From NCBI GenBank assembly GCA_937934305.1, contig CALHAG010000001.1, positions 12,422 to 76,421 on the forward strand: a stretch of 64,000 bases of DNA, written 5' to 3'. Positions 2,690 to 27,266 of the stretch are shown piece by piece (the stretch's first letter is position 1; each line of letters starts with the position of its first letter). Position numbers and translations under genes: made by a program. Source of the stretch: Candidatus Caldarchaeum subterraneum. GTDB lineage: Archaea > Thermoproteota > Nitrososphaeria_A > Caldarchaeales > Caldarchaeaceae. The notes under the pieces were generated by a model. That model was not told the DNA's origin, did not search any database, and saw nothing but the letters and a program-made list of their open reading frames with translations.

Positions 2690-2973
2690 CCATAAATCAC
2701 GTCTGTGAAGTCGCGTTCGCGGTAGAACCTGTGTTTCCATGCCTTGACGTTTGGGATGGCGTAGGGCAGAAGCCGTAATGAATAGTATGGCGGTAGAATG
2801 GGGAACCCGAGCATATCACCCATAATCATGAGAATGAACATGTGCTCCATGTACATGCGTGTTTTGAGGATGGATGTGACTTGCTGATGAAGGGCCACGC
2901 CATAGAACATGTCGCCAACTGCTTTCTTGAGACCTGAGAAGAAGCCGCCGCCTTTTTTCTCGCTCACGTCCAT
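2686..2973 (-). CDS. Small conserved hydrophobic protein, paralog B (first gene of a smallB-arsA2-arsA1 operon)
   Basis: 95 aa. GGG N-terminus, and the motif 'MGDMLGFPILPPYYSLRLLPY' shared with ORF 415..720. Confidence 0.45.
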   Translation of the reverse strand: MDVSEKKGGGFFSGLKKAVGDMFYGVALHQQVTSILKTRMYMEHMFILMIMGDMLGFPILPPYYSLRLLPYAIPNVKAWKHRFYRERDFTDVIYG

Positions 2974-3026
2974 ACAACACCCCGCATAATAAAAAAACTT
3001 TACTTATAAAAAATTTTTTAGGGTGT

Positions 3027-4817
3027 TTATGCTTTTACCTCTATTTTGGCGGCTCGTCGGAACCCTCTGACAAAGTAGACAGCCATCGCCAAGCCTATGA
3101 TGAACATTATGGCGCCGACCACTGTTGAGAAACCGTTGATGCCTTGCACAGCCAAGATACCGCCAGCGTTTTTCAGTATGTTCTGAGTTGGGTGGAGAAG
3201 TTTGGCTCCGACGGTTGCGTCGGCGAAAACATAGGTCTGGTAGGCTATGGCGGCTAGTGTGGTCACCATCATGAAGATTCCGGGGATGGTTGTATACCAG
3301 TGGAATCTTTTCTGCGTGTAGAGGAAGAGGCCTACTATGAGTAGGGCGAAGCCTGCGAGAAGCTGGTTTGTTCCGCCGAAGTAGAGCCAGATGTTGGTCC
3401 AGCTGCCTGTGAGCACGAAGATTATCGGGAGGACGAAGCCTAGAATCGATGCGATTAACTTGTTCCCGAGTATGGATAATGGTGTTCCGCCGAAGACCTC
3501 GGCCATCGTCACACGCCAGAACCTGCCCAATATTGTGAGGATTGTCACAGCCATGCCGACCATGTAGTTAGCGAAGAATATGCGGAGGAACGGGGCCGCA
3601 GCTTCTCCACCGAGCAGCGGAGATGTCAAAGTTGTCGCACCTAGAACAAAGTTGCCGGGAGATGCTCCACCAGCGGCCGTCAACAGAGGTATGGATGACC
3701 ATGCGGCCAGCGCCGTGAGACCTACTAGGTTTTCGGTTATCATCGCGCCTGCGCCGACTGGTCTGATGTCTGTCTCGACGTCTATCTGCTTCGAGGTTAG
3801 ACCTGTGCTTATGAGGCTGTGCCATCCCGAGATGGCTCCGCAGGCGATGGTGACAAATAGAGCTGGCCATAGGGGGCCGACGGTGAACACCTCGGCCCAG
3901 CCTCTGAAGTCGGGAACCTGTAGCTTAACTCCTGTAGCAGGTGAGACGAGGGCTCCCACTGTTAGGAGGATGACCGCGGGGATGAGCGAGTAGTAGGCGA
4001 TGTAGTTCATCGGAGTTATTAGACGCGGCATCGGCAGCAGCGAGCCGAGGACTAGTATAGCGACGAGGGGAATGAGCCAGTAGGTGTATGGGTTGGCTGC
4101 AGCGGCTACACCTTCAGGAGGCGGTGTGAAGACGAAGGTTCCAGGTGGTGGAACGTTCGCGAGCACGGTGGAGCCGAGCGCTATTCCTATGGCTTGAAGA
4201 ACCACGGCGAGTATCGTCACGGGCGCGACGTTCATCTTAACCTTGAACAGGAGGTGGCCTGTTATCACAGCGGCTATGACGAGGACCAGCAGCGACCAGA
4301 AGGAGCCTGGGAATGCGTTCATCACCGTTGCGACGACGAAGAGGAACGCGGCGTTGATGAGAAGTAGGTAGAAGAGGAGGAAGCCGAGCAACAGTTTCCT
4401 CGGCGTCGGCCCAAGCATCTCATAGGCAAGAGGCCCGAAGGACCTGCCCTCTTTTCTCACCGACAGAAACATGGCGCTGTAGTCTTGAACCCAGCCGATC
4501 AACAGGGCGGCGAAGAGAATCCATAGAAACGCGGGAAGCCATCCAAAGGCTAGGGCCGCTGTCCCGGGGCCGATTATTGGCCCGAGCGCGGCTATGCTGT
4601 TCCACTGAAAACCGTAGAGAACAAACCTTCCCACCGGAAAGAATTCGACGCCGTCGGCATAGACATGGGCTGGCGTGGGCCTCGACCTGTCGGGGCTCCA
4701 GACCTTTCTATCGATTATTTTGCTGTAAACGCTGTAGGCTATGAGGAAAACAACCAACCCAACGATGGTAAAGCCGAAAGGTGTATCGAAAACCATCGGC
4801 ATAAAATATCTATACAT
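3027..4817 (-). CDS. cstA: Carbon starvation protein CstA-family membrane transporter
   Basis: 596-aa polytopic membrane protein with the CstA-like 'SIAALGPIIGPGTAALAFGWLPAFLWI' signature near the N-terminus. Confidence 0.65.
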   Translation of the reverse strand: MYRYFMPMVFDTPFGFTIVGLVVFLIAYSVYSKIIDRKVWSPDRSRPTPAHVYADGVEFFPVGRFVLYGFQWNSIAALGPIIGPGTAALAFGWLPAFLWILFAALLIGWVQDYSAMFLSVRKEGRSFGPLAYEMLGPTPRKLLLGFLLFYLLLINAAFLFVVATVMNAFPGSFWSLLVLVIAAVITGHLLFKVKMNVAPVTILAVVLQAIGIALGSTVLANVPPPGTFVFTPPPEGVAAAANPYTYWLIPLVAILVLGSLLPMPRLITPMNYIAYYSLIPAVILLTVGALVSPATGVKLQVPDFRGWAEVFTVGPLWPALFVTIACGAISGWHSLISTGLTSKQIDVETDIRPVGAGAMITENLVGLTALAAWSSIPLLTAAGGASPGNFVLGATTLTSPLLGGEAAAPFLRIFFANYMVGMAVTILTILGRFWRVTMAEVFGGTPLSILGNKLIASILGFVLPIIFVLTGSWTNIWLYFGGTNQLLAGFALLIVGLFLYTQKRFHWYTTIPGIFMMVTTLAAIAYQTYVFADATVGAKLLHPTQNILKNAGGILAVQGINGFSTVVGAIMFIIGLAMAVYFVRGFRRAAKIEVKA

Positions 4818-5947: not shown

Positions 5948-6076
5948 CCGGGGGTTATGGTTGTTTAGCTGGCTTTTTTATGTTGATTTGTTACCTTTAA
6001 ATAGACTTCTCAAACCCTGCGGAAACTATGCAGAATTTATTTATAAACAGGTGTAAAAACTTTCCAAACGTGATGA

Positions 6077-6113
6077 GAGCGGGTATTTCTGACCGGTGAT
6101 GACAATACCCGTT
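6077..6113. promoter_or_regulatory. Imperfect palindrome (GAGCGGGTATT-N15-AATACCCGTTC), candidate operator upstream of crtI
   Basis: 11-nt arms with one mismatch. Lies 60-100 nt upstream of the crtI start, in the divergent intergenic region between the DUF211 gene and crtI. Confidence 0.4.
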
Positions 6114-6141
6114 CTGATGAATACTTGTATCTGGGTTAGGA

Positions 6142-6149
6142 TTTTATAG
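6142..6149 (+). promoter_or_regulatory. Archaeal TATA box (TTTTATAG) for crtI; predicts a leaderless transcript
   Basis: A/T-rich TATA-like element centred about 28 nt upstream of the TTG start at 6174. No SD-like sequence lies between them. Confidence 0.45.
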
Positions 6150-6173
6150 TAATAACTCGCGTGTCGGGTCAGG

Positions 6174-7643
6174 TTGAGAATAGTCGTTGTTGGCGCCGGA
6201 GTAGGCGGTCTAGCGGCCGCAGCTCTCCTGGCTAGAGATGGTCACGAGGTGACGATTGTCGAGAAGAACGAGAACGTCGGTGGAAGAGCTGGAGTACTCA
6301 GCCGAGACGGGTTTACCTTCGACATGGGCCCCACATGGTATCTTATGCCGGAGATATTCGACCGCTTCTACAGCCACTTTGGCAGGAAAACCTCCGACTT
6401 TTACAATCTTCTGAAACTTGACCCGGGGTACCGTGTCTTCTTCGATGACGGGGGCAAAGTGGATATATCGGCTGAGCTTGACGAGAACATCAGTTTATTC
6501 GACAGCCTCGAACCCAACGGGGGTGAAAAGCTGCGTAGATTTCTAGCAAAATGCGAAGAACTCTACAAGAGCGTATCAAAAACCCTCTACCTTGACCTCG
6601 ACTCACCTTTCAGCTTCCTCAACCCGGAGATACTTTCACAAGGCATCAAGATAAACATCTTCGAATCCGTCGAATCCTATGTCAAGAAATGGTTTCAATC
6701 AGACAAAGCCCGTAAACTGCTTCTCTACTCAATTGGTTTCATCGGGACACCACCCTCCAAAGCACCCGCGTTCTACGCCATACTCAACTACGTCAAACTC
6801 GTTCAAGGTGTCTATATGCCGGAGCATGGCATCAGACAGGTTGTCAACGCATTATACAGATTAGCGAAGCAGGAAAATGTAGAGTTTCTCCTCGGCCAGG
6901 AGGTCAGTAAAATCGAGGTTAGAAACTCTAGAGCAGAACGCATCTACATGAACGGTTCTTCGATGAAGGTGGACGCCGTCGTCGTTAACGCTGACTATGC
7001 ATCTTTCGAGACAAAGATTCTTGAACCCCGTCACCGCACCTACGATGTCGATTACTGGAGCAAACGAATGTTCACACCATCCGCTCTCATCGCATACATA
7101 GGACTAGACAAAAAGGTTGAAAATCTTATTCCGCATAACGTTTTTCTTGAAAAAGACTGGGGTGAAAACTTTCAGCAAATATTCGACCAACGTTACGCGA
7201 AATGGCCCGAATACGCTTCCTACTATGTGCATGTGCCCTCGAAGATAGATAAAACAGCTGCACCAGCCGGGGGAGAAGCGGTCTTCATATTGATACCGGT
7301 CGCCCACGGCATAGATGATGATGACAGCAAACGCGAAACACTCTTAAACAACATACTGCAAGACCTCGAGCAGAAAACCGGCGAAAAAGTCCGCGAAAAC
7401 ATAGTTTTCAAACAATTGTTCAGCATAAGAGATTTTTCAGCACGTTACCACGCATACCGCGGCTCGGCGCTTGGCCTAGCCCATACACTTGGCCAAACAG
7501 CTTTCTGGAGACCCAGGCATAGAAGCAAAAAGGTCAAAAATCTTTACTACAGCGGCCAGTATACTCATCCCGGCATAGGGGTGCCGATGGTTTTGATATC
7601 CGCGGAGATTGTACGTAACAAGCTGCGGAAGGAGTTGATGTAG
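6174..7643 (+). CDS. crtI: Phytoene desaturase (CrtI family FAD-dependent oxidoreductase)
   Basis: N-terminal dinucleotide-binding 'IVVVGAGVGGLAAAALLARDGHEVTIVEKNENVGGRAG'. 489 aa. The stop is immediately followed by the crtB ATG. Confidence 0.8.
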   Translation: MRIVVVGAGVGGLAAAALLARDGHEVTIVEKNENVGGRAGVLSRDGFTFDMGPTWYLMPEIFDRFYSHFGRKTSDFYNLLKLDPGYRVFFDDGGKVDISAELDENISLFDSLEPNGGEKLRRFLAKCEELYKSVSKTLYLDLDSPFSFLNPEILSQGIKINIFESVESYVKKWFQSDKARKLLLYSIGFIGTPPSKAPAFYAILNYVKLVQGVYMPEHGIRQVVNALYRLAKQENVEFLLGQEVSKIEVRNSRAERIYMNGSSMKVDAVVVNADYASFETKILEPRHRTYDVDYWSKRMFTPSALIAYIGLDKKVENLIPHNVFLEKDWGENFQQIFDQRYAKWPEYASYYVHVPSKIDKTAAPAGGEAVFILIPVAHGIDDDDSKRETLLNNILQDLEQKTGEKVRENIVFKQLFSIRDFSARYHAYRGSALGLAHTLGQTAFWRPRHRSKKVKNLYYSGQYTHPGIGVPMVLISAEIVRNKLRKELM

Positions 7644-18534: not shown

Positions 18535-19362
18535 ATGGTAGACCTCCTAACTGTGTTAGTAATCTCGTTTCTGGCTGGGCTGGTTGGCTCTATCACGGGG
18601 CTGGGAGGAGCCAGCATAACCACGCCTCTTCTAACCTTGGCCGGCGTGCCGATAAAATACGCCATCGCGGCCGGCATAGTCTCCATCATAGCCACCTCGA
18701 GCGGCGCCGCTGCTTCATATGTCCGCGGCGGATTATCCAACGTAAAGGCTGCAATGTTTCTCGAGATGTTCACGATAGTGGGAGCGATAATCGGCGCCAT
18801 CATAACAATCTACGTCTCGGCGCGGCTTCTCTACTTTCTCTTCGCAGGGTTTCTTCTCACATCCTTCATCGGCATCAGACGTCACTTGGGTGAAGAGCTT
18901 CCGACAAACGTGAACCAGGACAGGGCCGCTCGATGGCTGGGCCTCGAGGGCGCCTACTACGACCACAAGCTGGGCAGAGAAGTGTCCTACAAGCTTACCC
19001 GGCCTATTGCAGCGGGAGGCGGAATGTTTATCGCCGGCGTCGCGGCTGGGATGCTGGGCATAGGCGCCGGAGCCTTCAAAGTAGCCGTCCACGAGCTGGT
19101 CATGCGGATGCCGTCCAAAGTCTCATCAGCCACCAGCACCTTCATCATAGGCATGACAGCATTAGCGGGGGCCAGCGTATACTTCAGCTCGGGGCTACTG
19201 TACCTGACTCTCGCCGCGCCGATGGTTCTCGGCACAACCTCGGGAGCGGTCGTGGGCTCCCGCATCCTCGGACATATCAGCAACAGAGTAACGCGGCTGT
19301 TTTTCCTAGCTGTTGTTTTTGTTCTCTTTGTGCAGATGCTTCTGCGGGGGATACTGGCTTGA
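18535..19362 (+). CDS. TauE/SafE (DUF81) family sulfite/anion exporter
   Basis: 275-aa polytopic membrane protein with Gly-rich TM repeats typical of DUF81 (LAGLVGSITGLGGASITTPLL...IAGVAAGMLGIGAGAF). Confidence 0.7.
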   Translation: MVDLLTVLVISFLAGLVGSITGLGGASITTPLLTLAGVPIKYAIAAGIVSIIATSSGAAASYVRGGLSNVKAAMFLEMFTIVGAIIGAIITIYVSARLLYFLFAGFLLTSFIGIRRHLGEELPTNVNQDRAARWLGLEGAYYDHKLGREVSYKLTRPIAAGGGMFIAGVAAGMLGIGAGAFKVAVHELVMRMPSKVSSATSTFIIGMTALAGASVYFSSGLLYLTLAAPMVLGTTSGAVVGSRILGHISNRVTRLFFLAVVFVLFVQMLLRGILA

Positions 19363-19382
19363 GCCGTTACGAGAAACTGGAC

Positions 19383-19715
19383 ATGATTATCAGCTGGATA
19401 CTTGTCACCGGCGTCGCCGCCAGCCTAGCCGTGACAACATGGGCCCTCGCATCATATTATTTGAGCAACGGCCCAGCTTTAGCTCTCAGCGACGAATACA
19501 GAGTATCCTCGAAGAGCTTCTTCGACTATCTGCTTCACCTACCCAAGAGCGGTGTGGCAGGCGTTATGGCGATAGGCGTAGCCGCGCTCATGCTAACACC
19601 CTACATCAGAGCGCTGGCCTCGCTAATCTACTTCATAGCCAAACGCGACATCAAATACATTCTCATAACAGCCTTCGTCTTCACCATATTGACAGTGAGC
19701 TTACTAACCAGTTGA
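19383..19715 (+). CDS. DUF1634-like small membrane protein (usual partner of DUF81)
   Basis: Internal Met of ORF 18933..19715. 110 aa, 3 predicted TM segments. Its position directly after TauE matches the conserved DUF81-DUF1634 pairing. Confidence 0.5.
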   Translation: MIISWILVTGVAASLAVTTWALASYYLSNGPALALSDEYRVSSKSFFDYLLHLPKSGVAGVMAIGVAALMLTPYIRALASLIYFIAKRDIKYILITAFVFTILTVSLLTS

Positions 19716-19744
19716 GCAGAGCATTTTGGAAAAAGGCTTTGAAG

Positions 19745-20602
19745 ATGTTGAGGTTTAATAGCTCGGCGATGGCTTTCAAACTCATGGCGGAGCGCCGTAG
19801 AACTCTCCTGAAGGCTGCGCTGGGCTCCTCGCTTCTCGTCACTCTCGCGCCTTTCCTCTCATGGGGAGGCTATCTGTATAGGCCCGAGGCAACATCTGGA
19901 CAGATTAGGCAGAGGCTTATCAACCTGAAAGATTTTCCCGTCAACTCAAAGCTTACTTTCCCGTTCCCCGCAACAGGCGACCCAACCGTGGACTCGGACC
20001 CCTTCAGACAATACATACTCGTCCACCTCCCATCCGGAGACCTCAAAGCATACAGCAAAGTCTGCGTACATCTCTGGTGCCTCTACGACTACTTCCCCGA
20101 GAAAAGGCAGTTCCAGTGCCCATGCCACGGAAGCATATACAACCCCGACACAGGCGTAGCGACAAAGGGCCCCGCATCGCTACAGCCCTACCCCACCAAC
20201 TCACTGCCCGAGCTCAACCTCGAGGTTGACCCCGACGGCACCATATATGCGACGGGGCTGAGAGGTCGAATAGGATATGGCCGCGAATGGAGAGCCGAGG
20301 CGGCGTGGATACAGCAGAGACAATCAAGCTCACCCAACACACCCGTAACAGGCTACGTCGTCTTCAGAGACCCTCTGCCACCCGATAACATCCTCTCACT
20401 AATCCGCGGCGTCGACGCAAAGATAGTCAAATGGTATGGATACGTCGACAAATCCCCAACCGAGCGCGAATGGCTGACCGGCGAAGGCGAGCAGAACATC
20501 ACATCGGCCACCGCGGTATACGGCGTAGACGCATCAGCAACACCCTCCTCACATCTCAAACTCCTCGAAAACCCGCAGATCATACTCATCCTCCCCCGAT
20601 AA
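19745..20602 (+). CDS. Tat-signal Rieske [2Fe-2S] protein with a C-terminal extension
   Basis: Twin-arginine signal 'AERRRTLLKAALGSSLLV'. Rieske boxes 'CVHLWC' and 'CPCHGS'. Possible starts at 19745, 19769 or 19784. Confidence 0.65.
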   Translation: MLRFNSSAMAFKLMAERRRTLLKAALGSSLLVTLAPFLSWGGYLYRPEATSGQIRQRLINLKDFPVNSKLTFPFPATGDPTVDSDPFRQYILVHLPSGDLKAYSKVCVHLWCLYDYFPEKRQFQCPCHGSIYNPDTGVATKGPASLQPYPTNSLPELNLEVDPDGTIYATGLRGRIGYGREWRAEAAWIQQRQSSSPNTPVTGYVVFRDPLPPDNILSLIRGVDAKIVKWYGYVDKSPTEREWLTGEGEQNITSATAVYGVDASATPSSHLKLLENPQIILILPR

Positions 20603-20635
20603 AACACAAATACCGAGAACACTCCCCTCAAAACA

Positions 20636-20720
20636 GCGGGGGTCGCCAAGCCTGGTCAACGGCGCAGGACTGAGGCTCCTGTCCCGAAGGGGTTCGTGGG
20701 TTCAAATCCCACCCCCCGCA
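20636..20720 (+). tRNA. tRNA-Leu (anticodon GAG), type II with a long variable arm
   Basis: GCGGGGG...CCCCCGC acceptor stem and GGTTCAAATCC T-loop. Anticodon stem CAGGA/TCCTG with loop CUGAGGC. Long extra arm 'TGTCCCGAAGGGGTTC'. Confidence 0.8.
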
Positions 20721-20822
20721 AATTCAAGCATTAACTCTCCCAATTTCCTCTTACTGGATTAGAAGGATTGAATGGGAGGGGGTTGAGCTGAAGAGACTCC
20801 GCATCACCGTCATAAACCTATT

Positions 20823-21689
20823 ATGAAGACTTATCTGCGTCAAGGCTGGATGAATAATGTGGAAACCTGGGTTCTTACGGGAAGCGCCGAGAATTGGGAG
20901 AGAGCTCTCACCGCCTCGTTATGGGGTGTCACCGAGAAGTTAAAGACAAGATGGGAGAGAGTGGCCAGAGACGATCTACTTCTTTTCTACTGTAAATCTC
21001 CTGTGAAGGGAGTCATAGGGTATGGTAAAGTTAAGGGGAAGTTTAAACAGGATAAGCCCTTCTGGGCCGAGGAGATTAAACAAAACAGGGTCATATGGCC
21101 CTACAGGATTGAGTTCGAAGTTGGCTATGTTCTCCCAAGGCCTGACTGGGTGAGAGAAGCCGTCAGGGCGAAACTTGGGAAAAGGACGATAGTTGGGATA
21201 AGCATCGTCACCGACCAATCACTGGTCCAGCAGATAATGGATGAGATAAGTAGCAGGTGGAGAACATCTGTGAAAGTTGTTGAGAAACCTGTTTCTGAGC
21301 ATGACGAGGTGAAGAGCCTCGTCGCCGAACTTGGACGGCTCAGTAACTATATCGTGGATGTGGAGTATCGGATGCCAGATATCTCAGAAAGGTTGGATGT
21401 GGTTTGGAGACGTGTGGCCGCCAGTGTTCCAACATTTGTTTTCGAAGTTCACATAGGTGGCAATCTGCATCAAGCCCTCACAAAGCTCAAACACGCATAT
21501 GATATCTGGAACAGCAACATCTACCTAGTCGTGAAGGAGGATAGATATGATGAGGTTATGAGGTATCTGGAGGGCGCGTTTCACGAGATAAAACCTGTTA
21601 TCCGGGTTCTCAAGGTATCGCAGGTGAGGAAACTGCATGAAGTGCAGAGTTTAGACTATAGGTTGAAAGCTGAAGCTGGGCTACGGTGA
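20823..21689 (+). CDS. EVE (PUA-like) domain protein fused to a C-terminal domain of possible PD-(D/E)xK nuclease type
   Basis: N-terminus 'WVLTGSAENWERALTASLWGV...DLLLFYCKSPVKGVIGYGKV' fits the EVE/PUA-like fold. The C-terminal ~140 aa carry a 'LDVVW...FVFEVHIGG...KLK' pattern. Lies between two tRNA genes. Lower GC than the surroundings. Confidence 0.5.
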   Translation: MKTYLRQGWMNNVETWVLTGSAENWERALTASLWGVTEKLKTRWERVARDDLLLFYCKSPVKGVIGYGKVKGKFKQDKPFWAEEIKQNRVIWPYRIEFEVGYVLPRPDWVREAVRAKLGKRTIVGISIVTDQSLVQQIMDEISSRWRTSVKVVEKPVSEHDEVKSLVAELGRLSNYIVDVEYRMPDISERLDVVWRRVAASVPTFVFEVHIGGNLHQALTKLKHAYDIWNSNIYLVVKEDRYDEVMRYLEGAFHEIKPVIRVLKVSQVRKLHEVQSLDYRLKAEAGLR

Positions 21690-21702
21690 ACACTCGCTAA
21701 GT

Positions 21703-21776
21703 TGCGGCCGCCGGGATTTGAACCCGGGACCTGCGGGCCGGGGCCCCGCCGTCCTACCTGGCTAGACTACGGCCGC
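21703..21776 (-). tRNA. tRNA-Gly (probable anticodon CCC)
   Basis: Reverse complement reads GCGGCCG TA GTCT...GGAC, anticodon stem GCGGG/CCCGC with loop GCCCCGG, CCGGGTTCAAATCCCGG, CGGCCGC-A. Fits the 73-nt cloverleaf without an intron. The anticodon loop is atypical (C at position 33). Confidence 0.7.
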
Positions 21777-21805
21777 CTGTTTTGTTTCTATGTTTGGCAG
21801 GTTTT

Positions 21806-22114
21806 TTATGTTTTTGGGATGAAGTGGATGATGGTTACGGGGTCGTCTGGGCCGAGGCTGTTGTAGATTTTTTTGATGCTTTGGTAGAGTTCCTCGGGTG
21901 AGCTGTATCCCTCCAGCTGATATCGTGTGTTTACGGCTTCTCGGAGTGTCATGACCTCGACGGCGAGCAGCTCAGCGGCTATTCTGCGGTTTCCATCTGT
22001 TAGAATCAGCTCCCTGGCATACTCGCCGCCGTCTCCGGGCCTGATGGTTGATGTCTTCAAGCCCTTGAGAATAAGGTCGAGATACATGGGCTTGAACCGG
22101 AGAATCCGCCGCAT
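21806..22114 (-). CDS. ASCH-domain protein (PUA-like superfamily)
   Basis: 102 aa with 'FKPMYLDLILKGLKTSTIRPG', matching the ASCH GxKxxExR-type motif. Confidence 0.6.
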   Translation of the reverse strand: MRRILRFKPMYLDLILKGLKTSTIRPGDGGEYARELILTDGNRRIAAELLAVEVMTLREAVNTRYQLEGYSSPEELYQSIKKIYNSLGPDDPVTIIHFIPKT

Positions 22115-22197
22115 CGTCAGTCCACCCAGCTACCGCCCAGAAAATCCAGCGCCATAAAAAGTTAAGCCTATAACTTGTCCAACCATTTTCCGAGACG

Positions 22198-22842
22198 GTG
22201 ACGGCGGCAGGCATCAGAGATTTTTTCACAGCCGGCTTCAAGCCCACAGCATCTTATCTGCTGTATGGTGAGGAGAAGTCAGGTAAGACAGCGTTGCTTC
22301 TCTCAGCGGCTGCTAAGATAGCTGAGAAAGGTGGAAAGGTTGTCTGGATAGATTGTGGAGCACGTCTCCACCCAGCGCGTCTTAGACAGATTTTCCCCGT
22401 TGAGAGGCTTAACCAGCTCTACATCAGCCAGCCCCGAACATTTCACGAACAATTCGAAACAATGCTCAACGTCCACGACTTCCCGCCCTCGGATGCTTCG
22501 CTGATAGTCTGCGACGACTTCACCTACCTACACAAGCTCGAGCTCAGCGGAAAACCATCAACAGACCTCCCCATATACAGGGCCCTTTCCCTGCAAGCCG
22601 CTTTGCTGAAAAGCCTTGCAATCGCGAGGAAAATCTCGGTTGTCTTGGTGGGTCTTGTCCACTCTATTCCAGCCATCGATGCGCAGGAGCCTGTCGCTGC
22701 CCGGATAGTTACCTATTGGTCTGACGTGGTTGCGAAGGTTCAGCGGGGGCGCGAGGCTTCGGTGGTTATGCAGGAGAAGCCTGTGGCTCAGAAAATCTAT
22801 TTCAAGGTTGTGGAGAAGGGGGTGGAGGTTCTACGTTTTTGA
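22198..22842 (+). CDS. RecA-superfamily ATPase (KaiC/RadB-like)
   Basis: Walker A 'YGEEKSGKTALLL' and Walker B 'LIVCDD'. 214 aa, with no extra domains. Confidence 0.45.
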   Translation: MTAAGIRDFFTAGFKPTASYLLYGEEKSGKTALLLSAAAKIAEKGGKVVWIDCGARLHPARLRQIFPVERLNQLYISQPRTFHEQFETMLNVHDFPPSDASLIVCDDFTYLHKLELSGKPSTDLPIYRALSLQAALLKSLAIARKISVVLVGLVHSIPAIDAQEPVAARIVTYWSDVVAKVQRGREASVVMQEKPVAQKIYFKVVEKGVEVLRF

Positions 22843-23250
22843 TAGGTATCCGCCGATTAGTCCGAGAGCTGCGAGCGTGATGAGCAGGGTGCTGAAAAGC
22901 AGCATGTAGCGGGAGGCTCTAGGGCTGAATCGTTTGCTGAAAGCCACGCCGTATAGCAAAAGTCCGACGAAGCCGAGGATGTAGAAGGTGGCGACAACCA
23001 TCATCTCAGCAACCGTCTGAACCCGCGTATCAGGGTAAAACACCCGGACAGAGTCGCCGATAAACGCTACACCAATAACCACACGGGAAGCAACGTTATA
23101 CACAACACCCGCCAACACAACACTCGAGACAACCACCGCAACCCATGCCATCAGTTCCTGGAACCCAGGCCGCGAAACCAGCTCATACACGGCGTCGACA
23201 AGCCGCTTAACTCTCTCAGCCATCCCCGGCATCTTTTCCTCATCCACCAT
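22831..23250 (-). CDS. Hypothetical membrane protein
   Basis: 139 aa with 3-4 hydrophobic helices. Convergent with, and overlapping, the RecA-like gene. Confidence 0.35.
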   Translation of the reverse strand: MVDEEKMPGMAERVKRLVDAVYELVSRPGFQELMAWVAVVVSSVVLAGVVYNVASRVVIGVAFIGDSVRVFYPDTRVQTVAEMMVVATFYILGFVGLLLYGVAFSKRFSPRASRYMLLFSTLLITLAALGLIGGYLSKT

Positions 23251-23319: not shown

Positions 23320-25041
23320 TTAGAAGGTGGGTTGCTGTGGCTGTGGTTGTCTTCTTCTGCCGACGACTATGGCTGTGGCTATGAGGACGGCTATCATGAT
23401 GAGGAGCATGGGCAGTATGTAGGTTGAGACGGGCTCTGGGAAGGCGACGGTTGTTATCTGTGTCAGGGTTTGGGTGGTTGATTGTGTTTGCGTCGTTAGG
23501 ATGGTGGATGTCGTCGTCGCTGTCGTCGTGGTTGTCACGGTCTGAGTGTTTGTCGTCGTCTGTGTCTGAGTCGTTGTAACGGGGATGGTTGTGGTGCTGG
23601 TCGCGGTTGAAACAAAGATGACTGAGCTGGTCTGCGTTATGGTTGTAGTCGCTATAGCGTAAGCAGTTGTAGTGGTCGTAGCCGTCGCCGTGGCCGTGGT
23701 CGTCGTTCCAACGGTCGATGTAACCGTTGTTGTGCTTGTTGAAACAAGGTTGTCTGGGCAGAACCTTGAGTAGAAGGAGTTGATGGCTCCAGCTGTATCT
23801 ATTGGGGGAGTAAAGGTAGCGACCCCGGGTGAAGGCGAGGGCACGGAGGGGGAGACGGTGACCGTGGACGGTGTCGGAGCTTCAACCGTCAGCGAAACGG
23901 AGGAGGACTGCGCGTTTTGGAGGTCGTTTATGACGTAGAAGAGAGGTAGGTTGACGTGTTGACCCGCTGGATACACGCATGCTCCGAGTGATGCTGCTGC
24001 ATTGGCTTGGTCGTCGCCTGTTGGGCCGCCTGTGATGAAGAACGAGTGTGAGAATGTTCCGTCGGGGGCGAAGGCGGCGAGCAATACGTCTCGTGTTCCG
24101 TAGCCTGTTGTATAGCCTGCTAGATAGATGGTCCCACCTGCAGCCGCTAAGCCATACGCAATTTCGTCGCCTGTTGATGTTCCGAAGGCTCTAACCCATT
24201 GTAGCGTTAGACTAGAGTCCAGACGGGCCAAAACCGCTTCATCCATCCTACCCGCTATGACTGTTTTGCCTGCGAGGTAGATGTTCCCACCAGAGATTAT
24301 TATGTCGTGTGCCTCGTCGTTTCCTGCGCCTCCTATCTCCCTCGTCGCCAAATGGTTGCCGTTGGTGTCGAAAACGGAGACAAACATCTCAAGCGAGCTT
24401 CCGTCGTCAGATGTTCCCGCAACGTAGACGCGGCCTCCTGAGAAAGCCACCGCGTTCGCCACATCGTTTCCCCCACGCACTCTGAAGTTCTTCGCCCACA
24501 CCACGTTGAGGCTTGAGTCAAGCTTCTCCACAAATGCACCGATACCCGGCTGATAGCCCACGACATAGAAAGAGGGAGAGGCCGCCGGCTCGACGGCTAT
24601 ATCTGTTGCTTCTTCGCCCGGCCCTATGTCGTAGAGGTTTATGGTCTGGAGGGCGCAGCTGGTGTCGAAAACGGCGACGAAATGGTTGGGAGGAGTGGGG
24701 CCGGATGTTGTTCTTCCGAGCATGTATATTCTGTTGTTGTGAAATGTCAAGGCTCTTGCTTCTTCGCTGGCGCCTAGGTCGAGTGCTACGCTGCATCGGT
24801 GGCTGTTATCGCTGTTAAAGATTGTGAGGAACGCGTTGGGTGTGTTGGGGCCAAAAGACGATGTGAAACCCACGGTGTATATGCCGTTGGAGTCTACGTA
24901 GATGTCTGTGGTGATGTCGTCAGCAGAACCGCCGTAGGAGCGGCGGAAACTCACAACCTCAGCGGACACGCTCAACATCCCGATAAGCATCAAAGCAGTC
25001 AGCAGACAAATTGAGGGCGATGTTTTCATTCTCATGTTCAA
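23320..25041 (-). CDS. Secreted SBBP beta-propeller-repeat surface protein with a Thr-rich stalk and C-terminal membrane anchor
   Basis: Signal peptide 'MKTSPSICLLTALMLIGMLSVSA'. Repeated 'G(G)xIYxAG...DxFV' SBBP-like blades. About 90-aa poly-Thr region, then a C-terminal TM 'ILPMLLIMIAVLIATAIVVGRRR'. Confidence 0.55.
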   Translation of the reverse strand: MNMRMKTSPSICLLTALMLIGMLSVSAEVVSFRRSYGGSADDITTDIYVDSNGIYTVGFTSSFGPNTPNAFLTIFNSDNSHRCSVALDLGASEEARALTFHNNRIYMLGRTTSGPTPPNHFVAVFDTSCALQTINLYDIGPGEEATDIAVEPAASPSFYVVGYQPGIGAFVEKLDSSLNVVWAKNFRVRGGNDVANAVAFSGGRVYVAGTSDDGSSLEMFVSVFDTNGNHLATREIGGAGNDEAHDIIISGGNIYLAGKTVIAGRMDEAVLARLDSSLTLQWVRAFGTSTGDEIAYGLAAAGGTIYLAGYTTGYGTRDVLLAAFAPDGTFSHSFFITGGPTGDDQANAAASLGACVYPAGQHVNLPLFYVINDLQNAQSSSVSLTVEAPTPSTVTVSPSVPSPSPGVATFTPPIDTAGAINSFYSRFCPDNLVSTSTTTVTSTVGTTTTATATATTTTTAYAIATTTITQTSSVIFVSTATSTTTIPVTTTQTQTTTNTQTVTTTTTATTTSTILTTQTQSTTQTLTQITTVAFPEPVSTYILPMLLIMIAVLIATAIVVGRRRQPQPQQPTF

Positions 25042-25145: not shown

Positions 25146-27266
25146 TTGTGGAATTGGTTTAGAACGGGTTTGTCTGTTGTGCGTGTTTTGTCTGGGCTGA
25201 GGCGTGTGGACCGTGTGCTGGGTGGTAGGCATCGGTTGGCTGAGCTGGGTATTCTCATGCTGTTGTTGAGCACGGCGTTTGTTCTCCGTGTTCTGCCTCT
25301 CCGCTGGGGTGTGGCTCTCTCCGAGTTTGACCCATGGGTTCAGTATAAGGAGGCTTTGTTCGTGATTGAGCGGGGCTGGGGAGGGTTTGCCGAGTTCTTC
25401 AGCTGGCATGACACGATGTCATGGTATCCATGGGGCAGGGACATGGGGCGCACAGCCTTCCCCGGCATACCCTTCGCCATGGCCTTCATCTACCTCTCCC
25501 TCAAATCCCTCGGCATAACAGTCGACACCCTCGAGCTCGCCGCAGTTCTTCCAGTTGTCTACGGAGTGTTAACCGTGGTTGCCATCTATTTTCTGGGTAA
25601 ACGTGTCGGCGGCACTTCCACAGGCTTGGCCGCGGCCCTTTTCATGGCTATTAGCACGGCGCATATAGGGCGTACTCATCTGGGATGGTTTGACGACGAG
25701 AGCCTCAGCCTACCCTTGATGCTTGGTGGATACATCTTCTATCTCGCGGCGATTTCCGAGAAGAGAAGCATCCGTGGGACGGTTGTTTACGCAGTGTTGT
25801 CGGGATTGTTTCTCGGGTTCATGGCTGCGAGCTGGGGTGCTCACAAGTTCCCCCTCGCTTTCGTTCCCTTGTTCAGCGTATTCCTCGCAGTCATCGGCAG
25901 ATACCGGAGAAGCCTGCTCGTTGCAACAGCTGTAGCCTTCGCCATATACACATCCATCGCGGTCTCCGTCCCCAAGCTTGGCCCCGGCTACATCCGTGAG
26001 GTAACAATCTTCTCAGGATTTATCGCCCTGTTCATACTCGCCGTGTTTGAAGCGGCTTCGCGGATAAAGCAGCCTGAGACAAGGCGTCTAACAATCTTCA
26101 CCGTTCTTCTTCTCTCGGCTATCGGGTTCTTCGCTCTCCTGGGCCTCGGAGTCCTCGGTGTGCCTGGTCTCAAGTTCCTCTCAGTGATACTGCCCGGCCT
26201 CCGCGACGCTTTGCCCATCGTTGAATCGGTTGCGGAAAACCAGATCCCGACATGGTCCATCATGTTCTCCGACTTTGGCCTTGCCCTCGCTCTCGTGCCC
26301 GTAGGAGTTTACCAGCTCATCAAGACGAGACGTGACCCCGACCTCTTCATAGTCCTCTTCCTCCTGTTCTCGGCTTATTTTGCATCGTCGATGGTTCGTC
26401 TCTCGCTGCTCGCCTCCCCCGCTGTCGCACTCGTAGCAGGACACGGCTACGCGTTTGTCTTCTCTCGGCTCGGTGACTTGATTGCCCAGAGACGTGCTTC
26501 GAAGAAACGGGGCGAGGAAGTGAACATAGGGCTCGCCGCCTTCACTCCTGTGCTGCTTGTTCTTCTGCTTCTCGTCTCGATTGTGCCATCGGTGTATGGA
26601 GGGCTCGGCTCACGCGTCACTTTGTCTCCCATCGACCAAGGCTACCAGCCTGCGACAATAGTTACATCAAGCTTCCCCGCTCGCCAGTCAATACCCGACT
26701 GGGTCAGGGCCCTTGCATGGATGAGGGACAACCTTCCCAAGGACGCTGTTGTGGCTTCGTGGTGGGACTACGGCTACTGGATAACCATACTCGGCGAGAG
26801 AATCACGCTCATCGACAACGCAACAATCAACTCGACGCAGATAGGTGATGTGGCCCATGCCTTCATGAGTGATGAGAGAACCGCGATGGAGATTTTCCGT
26901 CGGCACAACGTTACACACGTGGTTATCTATGTGACGCATCAGTTTGTTGTGCAGGGTGGTCAGGCGTATGGCCGTCTATTAGGGTTCGGCGACGAGGGCA
27001 AGTGGATTTGGATGCTGCGGATAGCCAACCAGACGGGCCACTTCTACCGTGAATCCGACTACGTTGACCAGAACTTCCAACCCACCCAGCGGTTCTGGCA
27101 AACACTCCTCGGACAGCTCATCCCATACAAACCAACACAGACAGCCTTCGGCCCCGGACACCTCTACAACCCCAGCCAACTCAACTACTTCCGCCTCGTA
27201 TACCAGTCAAGCCCACCATACCAATCACTCGCATACGTATACATCTACGAGGTAGTTTACCCGTAA
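25146..27266 (+). CDS. aglB: Archaeal oligosaccharyltransferase AglB (STT3 family)
   Basis: 13-TM N-terminal domain plus the 'WWDYGYWI' signature motif. 706 aa. Confidence 0.85.
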   Translation: MWNWFRTGLSVVRVLSGLRRVDRVLGGRHRLAELGILMLLLSTAFVLRVLPLRWGVALSEFDPWVQYKEALFVIERGWGGFAEFFSWHDTMSWYPWGRDMGRTAFPGIPFAMAFIYLSLKSLGITVDTLELAAVLPVVYGVLTVVAIYFLGKRVGGTSTGLAAALFMAISTAHIGRTHLGWFDDESLSLPLMLGGYIFYLAAISEKRSIRGTVVYAVLSGLFLGFMAASWGAHKFPLAFVPLFSVFLAVIGRYRRSLLVATAVAFAIYTSIAVSVPKLGPGYIREVTIFSGFIALFILAVFEAASRIKQPETRRLTIFTVLLLSAIGFFALLGLGVLGVPGLKFLSVILPGLRDALPIVESVAENQIPTWSIMFSDFGLALALVPVGVYQLIKTRRDPDLFIVLFLLFSAYFASSMVRLSLLASPAVALVAGHGYAFVFSRLGDLIAQRRASKKRGEEVNIGLAAFTPVLLVLLLLVSIVPSVYGGLGSRVTLSPIDQGYQPATIVTSSFPARQSIPDWVRALAWMRDNLPKDAVVASWWDYGYWITILGERITLIDNATINSTQIGDVAHAFMSDERTAMEIFRRHNVTHVVIYVTHQFVVQGGQAYGRLLGFGDEGKWIWMLRIANQTGHFYRESDYVDQNFQPTQRFWQTLLGQLIPYKPTQTAFGPGHLYNPSQLNYFRLVYQSSPPYQSLAYVYIYEVVYP

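What the first reader, a model, noticed from the sequence alone, without database searches (positions are those of the whole stretch)
20636..22114. tRNA-bracketed islet encoding two PUA-like modified-base readers (an EVE fusion protein and an ASCH protein)
Between tRNA-Leu(GAG) and a convergent tRNA-Gly sits a lower-GC gene. Its N-terminus has EVE-domain hallmarks. Its C-terminal ~140 aa contain a PD-(D/E)xK-like 'D...EVH...K' pattern. This is the architecture of modification-dependent (type IV-like) restriction enzymes that sense modified cytosines. Just past the tRNA-Gly, an ASCH-domain protein (a second PUA-like reader) is encoded. tRNA genes are classic integration hotspots, so this looks like a small acquired defence or epigenetic-reader module.
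Basis: partly seen in the sequence, partly recalled or inferred. Interest (0 to 1): 0.65.

Follow-up and report, generated by a model that had tools for sequence, protein, structure and literature searches.

The report
Predicted modified-DNA-cutting enzyme between two tRNAs
A hot-spring archaeon (Candidatus Caldarchaeum) carries, between two tRNA genes, a single gene that fuses a modified-base reader to a restriction-enzyme-type nuclease; it is an untested member of an already predicted class of enzymes that cut modified foreign DNA, and the neighbouring ASCH gene is not demonstrably part of it.

Summary
The described features are all present. tRNA-Leu(GAG) lies at 20636-20720 (+) and tRNA-Gly(CCC) at 21703-21776 (-). 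Between them is a 279/288-aa ORF (20850 or 20823 to 21689), and just past tRNA-Gly a 102-aa ASCH ORF (21806-22114, -).

The ORF is a two-domain protein. The N-domain has a PUA-like EVE fold (closest solved structure PH1033). The C-domain, modelled at pLDDT 95.5, has the alpha-beta-beta-beta-alpha-beta restriction-endonuclease fold. Its invariant signature is D...E-x-(Q/H)...(K/R); the window's version is D, EVH, KLK. No Pfam, NCBIfam or PADLOC model covers the C-domain.

The same nuclease domain is elsewhere fused to Mrr_N and HARE-HTH restriction-enzyme DNA-binding domains. The family is found in 184 GTDB species, is patchy and crosses between archaea and bacteria. It has no constant partner gene, and adjacent methyltransferase genes are almost always truncated.

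My reading is a solitary type IV (modification-dependent) DNA endonuclease. The EVE-PD(D/E)XK architecture was already predicted by Bell et al. 2020.

- ASCH as a functional partner.
- Cytosine specificity.
- Compositional foreignness (GC z = -1.2).

The "acquired islet" idea is plausible, because the location differs in relatives and tRNA-Leu is a live integration site. It is unproven: there is no att scar and no empty site.

The parts
20636..20720 (+). tRNA-Leu(GAG), 85 nt; its 3' end faces the EVE-nuclease gene
   Evidence: ARAGORN; Rfam RF00005, 51.6 bits
20691..20720 (+). The last 30 nt of tRNA-Leu. This is an attachment-site core used by a 7.3-kb insert in a conspecific genome; the window is the empty site for that insert.
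   Evidence: The L005 homology breakpoint falls at window position 20691. Perfect 30-nt direct repeats flank L104 6002-13276.
20721..20849 (+). Upstream non-coding region. It contains an ATG at 20823 that is probably not the true start, and a TATA-like 'ctattatg' about 27 nt before 20850 (inference only).
   Evidence: Sequence. Family N-termini align to 'MxxW' at 20850-20870. The public annotation uses 279 aa.
20850..21689 (+). EVE-PD-(D/E)xK fusion gene, 279 aa plus stop (alternative start at 20823 gives 288 aa)
   Evidence: ORF list; 100% identical public protein P0001; full-length AF2 model with pLDDT 91.4
20850..21257 (+). N-terminal PUA-like EVE domain (residues 1-136), the presumed modified-base reader
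   Evidence: NCBIfam PRK00809, E = 3e-8; Foldseek hits to PH1033, MJECL36, ZmASCH, YTH and EVE structures; invariant WGV and FY motifs
21258..21296 (+). Variable, low-confidence interdomain linker (residues 137-149)
   Evidence: pLDDT dips to about 60 in block 141-150 and pTM is 0.52. The region varies in length in the alignment.
21297..21686 (+). C-terminal PD-(D/E)xK-fold nuclease domain (residues 150-279), covered by no Pfam, NCBIfam or PADLOC model
   Evidence: AF2 pLDDT 95.5 with topology a-bbb-a-b-a-b-a. Foldseek top hits are the R2 restriction-like endonuclease, EcoT38I, Can2, BstEII, 3ijm and Mus81. No family-library hit.
21396..21398 (+). Invariant Asp at the start of beta-2, the 'PD' aspartate equivalent
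   Evidence: Invariant in all architectures; strand position
21444..21452 (+). E-V-H on beta-3. Glu is invariant and the third position is always Q or H, in place of the canonical Lys.
21483..21491 (+). K-L-K on helix alpha-2. The second position is always K or R, making it a candidate relocated catalytic lysine (inference).
21703..21776 (-). tRNA-Gly(CCC), 74 nt; its 3' end lies 13 nt after the EVE-nuclease stop codon
   Evidence: ARAGORN; Rfam, 55.2 bits
21806..22114 (-). ASCH-domain ORF of 102 aa. It is a neighbour only, with no evidence of functional linkage.
   Evidence: Pfam ASCH, 43.2 bits; only itself found among homologues; no homologue of it among the ORFs of the 80 fetched family loci

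Best explanation
The gene at 20850-21689 most likely encodes a solitary, single-chain, modification-dependent (type IV-like) DNA endonuclease of Candidatus Caldarchaeum.

Proposed mechanism:
- The N-terminal EVE domain (a PUA-like pseudobarrel) is proposed to bind a flipped-out modified base in incoming viral or plasmid DNA.
- The flexibly linked C-terminal PD-(D/E)xK-fold domain then cuts nearby DNA in a metal-dependent reaction. Its proposed catalytic residues are Asp (beta-2), Glu-x-His/Gln (beta-3) and a Lys/Arg from helix alpha-2.
- The host's own DNA would be spared because it lacks the recognised modification, so no partner methyltransferase is needed.

What is shown: both folds, the conserved motif, the modular reuse of the nuclease domain with restriction-type DNA-binding domains, the horizontal mobility of the family, and the absence of any required partner.

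What is inferred: DNA rather than RNA as substrate, dependence on a modification, the identity of that modification (m6A or m4C is at least as likely as 5mC or 5hmC), and the defence role.

The position between two tRNA 3' ends fits an old integration event but is not proven. The ASCH gene next door is best treated as an unrelated neighbour.
For: 1. Two confident domains. The N-domain is EVE-like. The C-domain has the restriction-endonuclease core topology at pLDDT 95.5. Its best PDB matches are almost all PD-(D/E)xK nucleases: R2 RLE at E = 5e-4, then EcoT38I, Can2, BstEII, 3ijm, Mus81 and SPARDA.

2. Conserved residues. H, D, E-x-(Q/H) and K/R sit on exactly the secondary-structure elements where the superfamily places its catalytic residues. 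They are invariant across 629 clusters' representatives sampled in several architectures.

3. Modular reuse. The same nuclease domain is fused to Mrr_N plus HARE-HTH (P0234), HARE-HTH alone (P0240) and DUF5655 (P0196). It also occurs alone (P0253, P0256). It therefore behaves as a swappable effector of restriction-type DNA-binding modules.

4. No partner gene. No gene is conserved next to the family in the 80 fetched loci. MTases are absent in about 67 of the 80. Where a PF01555 MTase lies directly upstream (13 loci in at least 4 divergent branches), 11 are truncated, one (L019) stops 15 aa after its SPPY motif and only one (L033) is complete. The EVE-nuclease ORF is intact in 12 of those 13 loci; the L044 copy is truncated at its 5' end. 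The nuclease therefore does not need methylation for host protection, which argues for type IV over type II.

5. Patchy, horizontally transferred distribution. The family is in 184 of about 186,000 species genomes. Methanobacteriota copies are 74-75% identical to bacterial ones. Its position differs in every lineage examined.

6. Precedent. The EVE-PD(D/E)XK architecture was predicted to be a type IV enzyme class (PMC7641849). EVE-HNH enzymes are experimentally modification-dependent (PMC6765204; PMC7897488, abstract).
Against: - There are no biochemical data for any family member.
- The canonical Lys of (D/E)xK is replaced by Q or H.
- Structural matches are modest: TM 0.33-0.55, and only one hit at E < 1e-3.
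- No sequence-profile link to Mrr or McrC was found.
- PADLOC defence models do not hit the protein.
- Most archaeal and Dehalococcoidia copies sit among housekeeping genes rather than in defence islands. In about 20 Dehalococcoidia loci the gene is stably syntenic with SecA and PolX, which is unusual for a restriction gene.
- PUA, EVE, ASCH and YTH domains are classically RNA binders.
- The window protein itself does not reach Pfam's EVE threshold.
Confidence: 0.6

Rival explanations
1. RNA-directed nuclease. The EVE domain reads a modified ribonucleoside (for example in tRNA or rRNA) and the PD-(D/E)xK domain cleaves RNA, as a quality-control, stress or abortive-infection function.
For: The nearest structural neighbours of the N-domain include the ribonuclease ZmASCH and the RNA-binding Mmi1 YTH domain. 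PUA and EVE domains are generally regarded as RNA binders (PMC6765204; PMC7641849). The gene lies between two tRNA genes in the window. Many copies have housekeeping neighbours.
Against: The tRNA neighbourhood is species-specific. Of the 80 GTDB loci only 5 contain any tRNA, and only 2 of those lie within about 500 bp of the gene: L042 tRNA-Gly(GCC) and L045 tRNA-Pro. The same nuclease domain is fused to the DNA-binding Mrr_N and HARE-HTH domains. One subclade is embedded in DNA R-M gene arrays.
Confidence: 0.15
2. Housekeeping DNA-repair or epigenetic endonuclease. The EVE domain recognises a damaged or endogenously modified base and the nuclease nicks next to it, feeding a PolX-type gap-filling pathway.
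For: In about 20 Dehalococcoidia loci the gene lies on the same strand and tightly spaced in the array PRPP synthetase-SecA-[EVE-nuclease]-small acidic protein-PolX/PHP. In the window it is near a RadB-like recombinase paralogue.
Against: The PolX linkage is confined to one lineage, whose copies are about 67% identical to each other, so it counts as a single event. The RadB-like/OST3-like/AglB backbone exists without the EVE gene in a relative. A patchy distribution with inter-domain transfer is not expected of a core repair enzyme.
Confidence: 0.1
3. Classical restriction enzyme of a type II-like R-M pair. It would cut unmodified DNA, with the EVE domain sensing the protective methyl mark made by the upstream PF01555 methyltransferase.
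For: A PF01555 MTase gene lies directly upstream on the same strand in 13 of 80 loci, spread over at least four divergent branches of the family.
Against: 11 of the 13 MTases are truncated, one (L019) stops just after motif IV and only one (L033) is complete, while the nuclease ORF is intact in 12 of the 13 loci. The window and about 67 other loci have no MTase within 6 kb. An enzyme that cuts unmodified DNA would then be lethal.
Confidence: 0.03
4. Catalytically dead reader or regulator. The PD-(D/E)xK-like domain serves only for dimerisation or DNA binding, because the canonical Lys is missing.
For: The third motif position is Q or H rather than K. Structural matches are weak.
Against: D, E and the K/R on helix alpha-2 are invariant across all architectures. 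The D...E-x-Q variant has an active precedent in BglII (my own knowledge, not tested here). Some copies that are decaying lose the ORF entirely (L032, L044), which implies selection on the intact ones.
Confidence: 0.07

Closest known systems
EVE-PD(D/E)XK fusion proteins predicted as type IV restriction endonucleases (Bell, Wolf and Koonin 2020, BMC Biol 18:159, PMC7641849)
   Same: The same two-domain logic: an EVE reader plus a PD-(D/E)xK nuclease in a single chain with no methyltransferase. That paper also predicts a patchy distribution and a defence role.
   Different: That class is a computational grouping with no tested member. I could not show that this roughly 280-aa family is in their set; their supplement has no Caldarchaeum entry. 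The nuclease domain here is not recognised by Pfam and carries E-x-(Q/H) instead of (D/E)xK.
EVE-HNH modification-dependent endonucleases VcaM4I / TspA15I (PMC6765204, PMC7897488)
   Same: An N-terminal EVE reader and a C-terminal nuclease. These are solitary genes that are rarely near MTases, and they are experimentally 5mC/5hmC-dependent.
   Different: Their nuclease is an HNH (beta-beta-alpha-Me) domain, not PD-(D/E)xK. They are bacterial. The specificity of the present family is unknown.
MspJI/AspBHI-type enzymes (SRA-like reader plus PD-(D/E)xK-like nuclease); comparison from my own knowledge, not tested here
   Same: A PUA-superfamily reader at the N-terminus and a PD-(D/E)xK-type nuclease at the C-terminus, in a single polypeptide.
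   Different: No sequence or structural hit to them appeared in the PDB searches.
E. coli Mrr (Mrr_N winged helix plus Mrr_cat)
   Same: Some relatives of the present nuclease domain carry Mrr_N and HARE-HTH where the window protein has EVE. That gives the same overall layout of a reader or DNA-binding module followed by a PD-(D/E)xK domain.
   Different: The catalytic domain is not Mrr_cat. There is no Pfam PF04471 hit, and hhalign against E. coli Mrr gives a probability of 0.3%.
PH1033 / UPF0310 (NCBIfam PRK00809), a stand-alone archaeal EVE-like protein (PDB 1wmm, 2hd9)
   Same: It is the best sequence and structure match of the N-domain.
   Different: PH1033 is a 145-aa single-domain protein of unknown function with no nuclease domain.

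Membership tests
Type IV / modification-dependent restriction endonuclease of the 'PUA-superfamily reader + nuclease' kind | Modified-base reader domain of the PUA superfamily | tested here: met
   EVE-like by NCBIfam PRK00809 (E = 3e-8) and by fold (PH1033, E = 1e-6, plus other EVE, ASCH and YTH structures)
Type IV / modification-dependent restriction endonuclease of the 'PUA-superfamily reader + nuclease' kind | Nuclease domain with conserved catalytic residues in the same polypeptide | tested here: met
   PD-(D/E)xK topology, nuclease fold matches, and invariant D, E-x-(Q/H) and K/R
Type IV / modification-dependent restriction endonuclease of the 'PUA-superfamily reader + nuclease' kind | No cognate protective methyltransferase required | tested here: met
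   No MTase gene is adjacent: none of the six genes flanking the EVE gene (18535-23250) that were scanned with Pfam is an MTase. No MTase in about 67 of 80 loci. Adjacent MTases are mostly truncated while the nuclease ORF is intact.
Type IV / modification-dependent restriction endonuclease of the 'PUA-superfamily reader + nuclease' kind | Cleavage of DNA only when it carries a specific modification; restriction of modified phage or plasmid DNA | not testable with these tools
   Requires enzyme assays and in vivo restriction tests
Pfam EVE (PF01878) | HMM match above the curated threshold | tested here: not met
   The window protein gives no PF01878 hit at E <= 1, only YTH at E = 0.095. Many homologues at 40-55% identity do carry a precomputed PF01878 hit, and the fold agrees. 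Membership therefore holds at superfamily and fold level, not by the curated model.
PD-(D/E)xK nuclease superfamily | alpha-beta-beta-beta-alpha-beta core fold | tested here: met
   DSSP of the model gives H5-19, E23-29, E36-42, E51-56, H61-75, E78-83
PD-(D/E)xK nuclease superfamily | Asp at beta-2 and (D/E)-x-K on beta-3 | tested here: inconclusive
   Asp and Glu are invariant, but the Lys position is always Q or H. A K/R on helix alpha-2 is conserved and may substitute for it.
PD-(D/E)xK nuclease superfamily | Significant structural similarity to solved members | tested here: met
Mrr catalytic domain (Mrr_cat) | Sequence-profile similarity to Mrr_cat | tested here: not met
   No Pfam hit for 22 family members. 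hhalign against E. coli Mrr gives probability 0.3% and against McrC 0.1%.
tRNA-integrated genomic islet | tRNA gene at the boundary | tested here: met
   tRNA-Leu lies 129 nt upstream and tRNA-Gly 13 nt downstream, both with 3' ends facing the gene
tRNA-integrated genomic islet | Direct repeat of the tRNA 3' end (att scar) at the distal boundary, and an integrase | tested here: not met
   No second copy of either tRNA 3' end in the window at up to 3 mismatches. No convincing flanking repeat. The 982-nt gap between the tRNAs holds only the EVE-nuclease ORF.
tRNA-integrated genomic islet | Empty site in close relatives | tested here: inconclusive
   All conspecific contigs read carry the gene. 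The context of the sister-species homologue P0002 (77% identical) is not on record. More distant relatives have the gene elsewhere, and a distant RadB-like/AglB backbone lacks it.
tRNA-integrated genomic islet | Atypical base composition | tested here: not met
   GC z = -1.2 and GC3 z = -0.94; the gene ranks about 9th lowest of 53 ORFs
Pfam ASCH (PF04266), for the neighbouring ORF | HMM match above the curated threshold | tested here: met
   43.2 bits against a cut-off of 21.2, covering 2-101 of 103 profile positions

The most novel reading that the evidence does not exclude
The family may not be a simple phage-restriction enzyme. It could be a methylation-policing nuclease in genetic conflict with PF01555 (m6A/m4C) methyltransferases and their R-M systems. 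The basis is its recurrent same-strand placement immediately after MTase genes that are nearly always truncated, next to decaying TdeIII restriction genes, in at least four divergent branches and across phyla. This could mean that it kills or excludes cells and elements that establish that methylation, much as McrBC-mediated death follows a change of methylome. Alternatively its gene cassette may insert into such R-M operons. In other lineages (Dehalococcoidia with PolX, and possibly Caldarchaeum) it could have been domesticated for a chromosomal role.
Probability: 0.12. Interest if true: 0.6.

Novelty: new member of a known kind. Interest (0 to 1): 0.3.

Why it matters
If the prediction holds, this would be a compact (about 280 aa), thermostable, single-chain enzyme from a hot-spring archaeon that cuts DNA only at a modified base. 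It would also be the first tested member of the EVE-PD(D/E)XK class.

Such enzymes are useful for mapping DNA modifications. Knowing its target (m6A, m4C or something else) would indicate what DNA modifications the viruses of thermophilic archaea carry.

The work also defines an unannotated clade of the restriction-endonuclease fold. It comprises about 630 sequence clusters, has an E-x-(Q/H) signature, and is reused with several DNA-binding modules.

For genome annotation the practical message is modest. The gene should be called 'EVE domain-PD-(D/E)xK nuclease, putative type IV restriction enzyme'. The adjacent ASCH gene should not be grouped with it.

Tried and rejected
Searches that gave nothing or could not be run:
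- Pfam, NCBIfam and PADLOC scans of the C-domain and of 22 family members gave no nuclease family.
- A profile search of the C-domain against PDB sequences gave no hit.
- hhalign of the C-domain profile against E. coli Mrr and McrC gave nothing.
- A homologue search for the ASCH protein returned only itself. phmmer against PDB gave nothing. phmmer of ASCH, RadB-like, Rieske and the 139-aa neighbour against all ORFs of the 80 family loci gave no hit.
- A scan of viral contigs (IMG/VR) found no relative. PHROGs gave nothing meaningful.
- The genomic context of the C. subterraneum homologue P0002 is not on record.
- A literature search found no experimental work on this family. The Bell et al. 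supplement has no Caldarchaeum entry.

Ideas considered and rejected:
- An att scar around the EVE gene. No second copy of either tRNA 3' end exists in the window, and the short repeats are at chance level. The 27-nt inverted repeat I1 is only the shared T-arm of the two tRNAs.
- Foreign base composition, rejected.
- A type II-like R-M pairing with the upstream MTases, rejected because those MTases are truncated.
- Independent site-specific insertion of the EVE gene into MTase genes. I examined the junctions. The MTase remnants end at different points. L049, L053 and L062 share a conserved small ORF upstream and differ by an internal deletion of about 630 bp. This fits progressive decay of one ancestral array better than repeated homing, but it is not settled.
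Full report
ORGANISM AND OBSERVATION

The window comes from Candidatus Caldarchaeum sp. (Aigarchaeota/Nitrososphaeria lineage). The central ORF is 100% identical to a protein named from Caldarchaeum MAGs, and six conspecific contigs align at 99-100%.

ARAGORN finds tRNA-Leu(GAG) at 20636-20720 (+) and tRNA-Gly(CCC) at 21703-21776 (-). Rfam confirms both. Between them lies one ORF, 20823-21689 (+), 288 aa. The family alignment and the public annotation favour the start at 20850, giving 279 aa. Just beyond tRNA-Gly is a 102-aa ORF on the minus strand (21806-22114) that matches Pfam ASCH above threshold.

The 'lower-GC' remark is true only weakly. The gene has GC 0.479 against 0.518 for the window, the 11th percentile. 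Against 53 ORFs of the window, GC z = -1.2 and GC3 z = -0.94.

THE PROTEIN

The N-terminal half matches NCBIfam PRK00809 (UPF0310) at E = 3e-8 and PDB PH1033 at E = 0.018. Most homologues carry a Pfam EVE hit.

A full-length AlphaFold2 model built on a 30-sequence alignment has pLDDT 91.4 but pTM 0.52. That indicates two well-folded domains joined by a poorly defined linker at residues 137-149. The N-domain's best PDB matches are PH1033, MJECL36, ZmASCH, Mmi1 YTH and the EVE proteins 2gbs and 1zce (E = 1e-6 to 6e-4). It is a PUA-like EVE-type fold.

The C-terminal 134 residues, modelled alone, reach pLDDT 95.5 and have the order alpha-beta-beta-beta-alpha-beta-alpha-beta-alpha. That is the core of the restriction-endonuclease (PD-(D/E)xK) fold. 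The top Foldseek hits in the PDB are nearly all nucleases of that superfamily: the R2 restriction-like endonuclease (E = 5e-4), EcoT38I, Can2, BstEII, 3ijm, Mus81-Eme1, SPARDA and Card1. TM-scores are modest, at 0.33-0.55.

- Asp at the start of beta-2 (21396-21398).
- Glu-x-(Gln/His) on beta-3 (21444-21452).
- A Lys/Arg on helix alpha-2 (21489-21491).
- An invariant His on helix alpha-1.

These hold in the EVE fusions and in all other architectures. The canonical Lys is thus replaced by Q or H. To my knowledge an active precedent for D...E-x-Q exists in BglII; this was not tested here. No Pfam, NCBIfam or PADLOC model recognises this domain.

THE FAMILY

A word-indexed search found 598 relatives, nearly all full-length at about 270-295 aa. 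An exhaustive profile search with the nuclease domain alone found 629 clusters at 50% identity.

Most are EVE fusions, but the same domain also occurs in other arrangements:
- Behind Mrr_N plus HARE-HTH (P0234).
- Behind HARE-HTH alone (P0240).
- In front of DUF5655 (P0196).
- Behind unannotated N-terminal regions (P0233, P0259).
- Alone (P0253, P0256).

Mrr_N and HARE-HTH are DNA-binding modules typical of restriction enzymes. This modularity is the strongest indirect argument that the domain is a DNA-cleaving effector.

In one genome per species of GTDB, 184 species carry the family. They are scattered over Hadarchaeota, Aenigmatarchaeota, Thermoplasmata, Bathyarchaeia, an Asgard lineage, Methanobacteriota, Micrarchaeia and Nitrososphaerota. 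Bacterial carriers include Dehalococcoidia, Planctomycetota, Acidobacteriota, Gammaproteobacteria, Omnitrophota, Patescibacteria and others.

Archaeal copies are often closest to bacterial ones. Methanobacteriota L025 and L028 are 74-75% identical to bacterial copies, and Thermoplasmata L022 is 63% identical. Other Caldarchaeales carry a version only 39-40% identical to the window's (L042, P0118). The family therefore moves horizontally. No relative was found in 2.9 million viral contigs.

GENOMIC CONTEXT

Nothing is constantly linked to the gene.
- tRNAs are found in only 5 of the 80 GTDB loci, and only two of those are within about 500 bp of the gene: L042 tRNA-Gly(GCC) and L045 tRNA-Pro.
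- The closest relative with usable context (P0004, 56% identical) sits in the middle of a tryptophan operon.
- Other relatives lie next to an ABC transporter, ilvC, ribosomal and HSP20 genes, or a toxin-antitoxin-rich patch.
- No homologue of the window's ASCH protein (phmmer, E <= 0.01) is among the ORFs of those 80 loci.
- The window's ASCH protein has no detectable homologue other than itself.

Two recurrent contexts stand out.

First, in about 20 Dehalococcoidia loci the gene is in a tight same-strand array: PRPP synthetase-SecA-[gene]-small acidic ORF-PolX/PHP-unknown. This is vertical conservation within one lineage.

Second, in 13 loci from at least four divergent branches (38-44% identity between branches) a PF01555 N6/N4 DNA methyltransferase gene lies directly upstream on the same strand. 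In one cross-phylum subclade a small ORF and a TdeIII-type restriction gene follow downstream. 11 of the 13 methyltransferases lack motif IV or more, one (L019) stops 15 aa after its SPPY motif, and only one (L033) is complete. The TdeIII genes are fragmentary too. The EVE-nuclease ORF is intact in 12 of those 13 loci; L044 is truncated at its 5' end, and L032, another member of that subclade, carries an in-frame stop.

An enzyme that cut unmodified DNA could not outlive its methyltransferase. This pattern, together with the complete absence of a methyltransferase in the window and in most loci, argues for a modification-dependent enzyme or one otherwise harmless to the host. It argues against a classical restriction enzyme.

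THE tRNA 'ISLET'

In the window both tRNA 3' ends face the gene, which is where integrated elements usually sit.

A conspecific MAG (GCA_038831735.1) carries a 7,275-bp insert between the intact tRNA-Leu and the EVE gene. Its genes are three membrane proteins, a radical-SAM/B12 enzyme, a glycosyltransferase and two unknowns. The insert is flanked by perfect 30-nt direct repeats of the tRNA-Leu 3' end. tRNA-Leu(GAG) is therefore a live attachment site in this species, and the window represents the empty site. In that genome the EVE gene lies outside the insert.

Two other conspecific MAGs have an extra AT-rich stretch of about 190 bp between the tRNA-Gly 3' end and the EVE stop codon.

Around the EVE gene itself there is no tRNA-derived repeat, no integrase and no unusual composition. 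All conspecific contigs read carry the gene.

A distant relative keeps the RadB-like/OST3-like/AglB backbone to the right but has no ASCH, tRNAs or EVE gene next to it. The segment therefore lies at a synteny break.

Acquisition at this hotspot is plausible given the family's mobility, but it is not demonstrated. The sister-species locus could not be retrieved.

MECHANISM AND RIVALS

Best-supported reading (about 0.6): a solitary type IV, modification-dependent DNA endonuclease. The EVE domain binds a flipped modified base, and the tethered PD-(D/E)xK domain cuts nearby in a metal-dependent reaction. Self DNA is spared because it lacks the mark. The folds, the motif, the modularity, the mobility and the independence from a partner are shown. 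The substrate, the modification dependence and the defence role are inferred.

The base recognised is unknown. The only methyltransferases seen next to the family make m6A or m4C.

Rivals:
- An RNA-directed nuclease (0.15). It is favoured by the RNA-binding habits of PUA-like domains and by the ZmASCH and YTH structural neighbours. It is disfavoured by the Mrr_N and HARE-HTH fusions and the R-M contexts.
- A repair or epigenetic nuclease (0.1). It rests on the single PolX-linked lineage.
- A dead reader or regulator (0.07).
- A classical type II partner of the upstream methyltransferase (0.03). It is nearly excluded.

COMPARISON WITH WHAT IS KNOWN, AND NOVELTY

Bell, Wolf and Koonin (2020) already listed 'EVE-PD(D/E)XK' among the core architectures of putative type IV restriction enzymes. 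EVE-HNH enzymes (VcaM4I, TspA15I) are experimentally modification-dependent. I found no experimental work on this family.

The protein meets the architectural criteria of that class. The functional criterion, modification-dependent cleavage, cannot be tested here. It is not an Mrr_cat domain.

I rate it a new member of a known kind. The interest is moderate to low (0.3):
- An uncharacterised, unannotated nuclease clade.
- A potentially useful thermostable enzyme.
- An intriguing but unresolved association with decaying m6A/m4C R-M systems.

The ASCH gene should be treated as an unrelated neighbour.

Noticed in passing
L104 6002-13276 (conspecific MAG GCA_038831735.1); corresponds to an insertion at window 20691-20720: A 7,275-bp segment lies between the intact tRNA-Leu(GAG) and the EVE gene. 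It is flanked by perfect 30-nt direct repeats of the tRNA-Leu 3' end. It carries three membrane proteins, a radical-SAM/B12 enzyme, a GtrB-like glycosyltransferase and two unknowns. No integrase or viral hallmark was detected (Pfam annotations, PHROGs). tRNA-Leu is a live attachment site, and the window is the empty site.
   Followed up: yes
L102 9413-9602 and L106 (conspecific MAGs); corresponds to the junction at window 21690-21702: An extra AT-rich stretch of about 190 bp lies between the 3' end of tRNA-Gly(CCC) and the stop codon of the EVE-nuclease gene in two conspecific genomes. It has no obvious repeat or ORF. It may be a remnant of another integration, or the window lineage may have a deletion.
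   Followed up: partly
L017, L019, L028, L031, L033, L040, L044, L045, L049, L053, L059, L062, L085 (upstream of the EVE-nuclease gene); L032, L040, L059, L062, L085 (downstream): In 13 of 80 loci from several phyla a PF01555 N6/N4 DNA methyltransferase gene lies directly upstream on the same strand. 11 of the 13 are truncated at varying points, L019 stops 15 aa after its SPPY motif, and only L033 is complete. In one subclade a small conserved ORF and fragments of a TdeIII-type restriction gene follow. The EVE-nuclease ORF is intact in 12 of the 13 loci. The cause could be decay of an ancestral array, genetic conflict, or insertion of the gene into R-M operons.
   Followed up: partly
L016, L026, L036, L039, L048, L061, L064, L070-L074, L076, L081, L086 and others (Dehalococcoidia): A conserved same-strand array: PRPP synthetase-(small ORF)-SecA-EVE-nuclease-70-100-aa acidic protein (cluster c6, no Pfam hit)-PolX/PHP DNA polymerase-about 240-aa unknown (c4). 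Stable synteny with housekeeping and repair genes is unusual for a restriction gene. The small acidic ORF could be an inhibitor or partner.
   Followed up: partly
window 55613-57420 (+): Two adjacent ORFs with the lowest GC in the window (0.43-0.44). One is an AAA_21/AAA_15 ATPase (AbiEii/RloA-like, 436 aa) and the other an RloB-like protein (185 aa). On composition this pair is a better candidate for a recently acquired defence-type gene pair than the EVE gene.
   Followed up: partly
window 60691-61368 (-): A 226-aa ORF with GC 0.448 and GC3 0.44, the lowest GC3 in the window, and no Pfam hit.
   Followed up: no
window about 23257 onward, compared with L003, L101 and L102: Conspecific genomes diverge from the window to the right of the 139-aa membrane-protein gene. 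The Thr-rich 573-aa surface-protein gene (23320-25041) and AglB are replaced there by OCD/RraA/GFO-type oxidoreductase and ABC-transporter genes. This is strain-level variation of the cell-surface and glycosylation region.
   Followed up: no
window 22198-23250 and 25146-27266; L093 4959-8427: The RadB-like RecA-family ATPase, the OST3-like small membrane protein and the AglB oligosaccharyltransferase form a backbone conserved in a relative whose RadB-like protein is only 39% identical. The ASCH/tRNA/EVE segment is absent there.
   Followed up: partly
L032 about 2895-3761; L044 about 6001-6831: Two family members look degraded. L032 has an in-frame stop in 'WIVP*SEKNW', and L044 lacks the conserved N-terminus. 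These may be pseudogenes or assembly errors.
   Followed up: no
L049, L053, L062, immediately upstream of the EVE-nuclease start: A conserved ORF of about 65 aa (MKKY.(V/L)LLTRSYIVT...EFYLG.CPDLS...) ends a few bases before the EVE-nuclease start codon. L049 and L062 differ from L053 by an internal deletion of about 630 bp in the methyltransferase remnant.
   Followed up: partly
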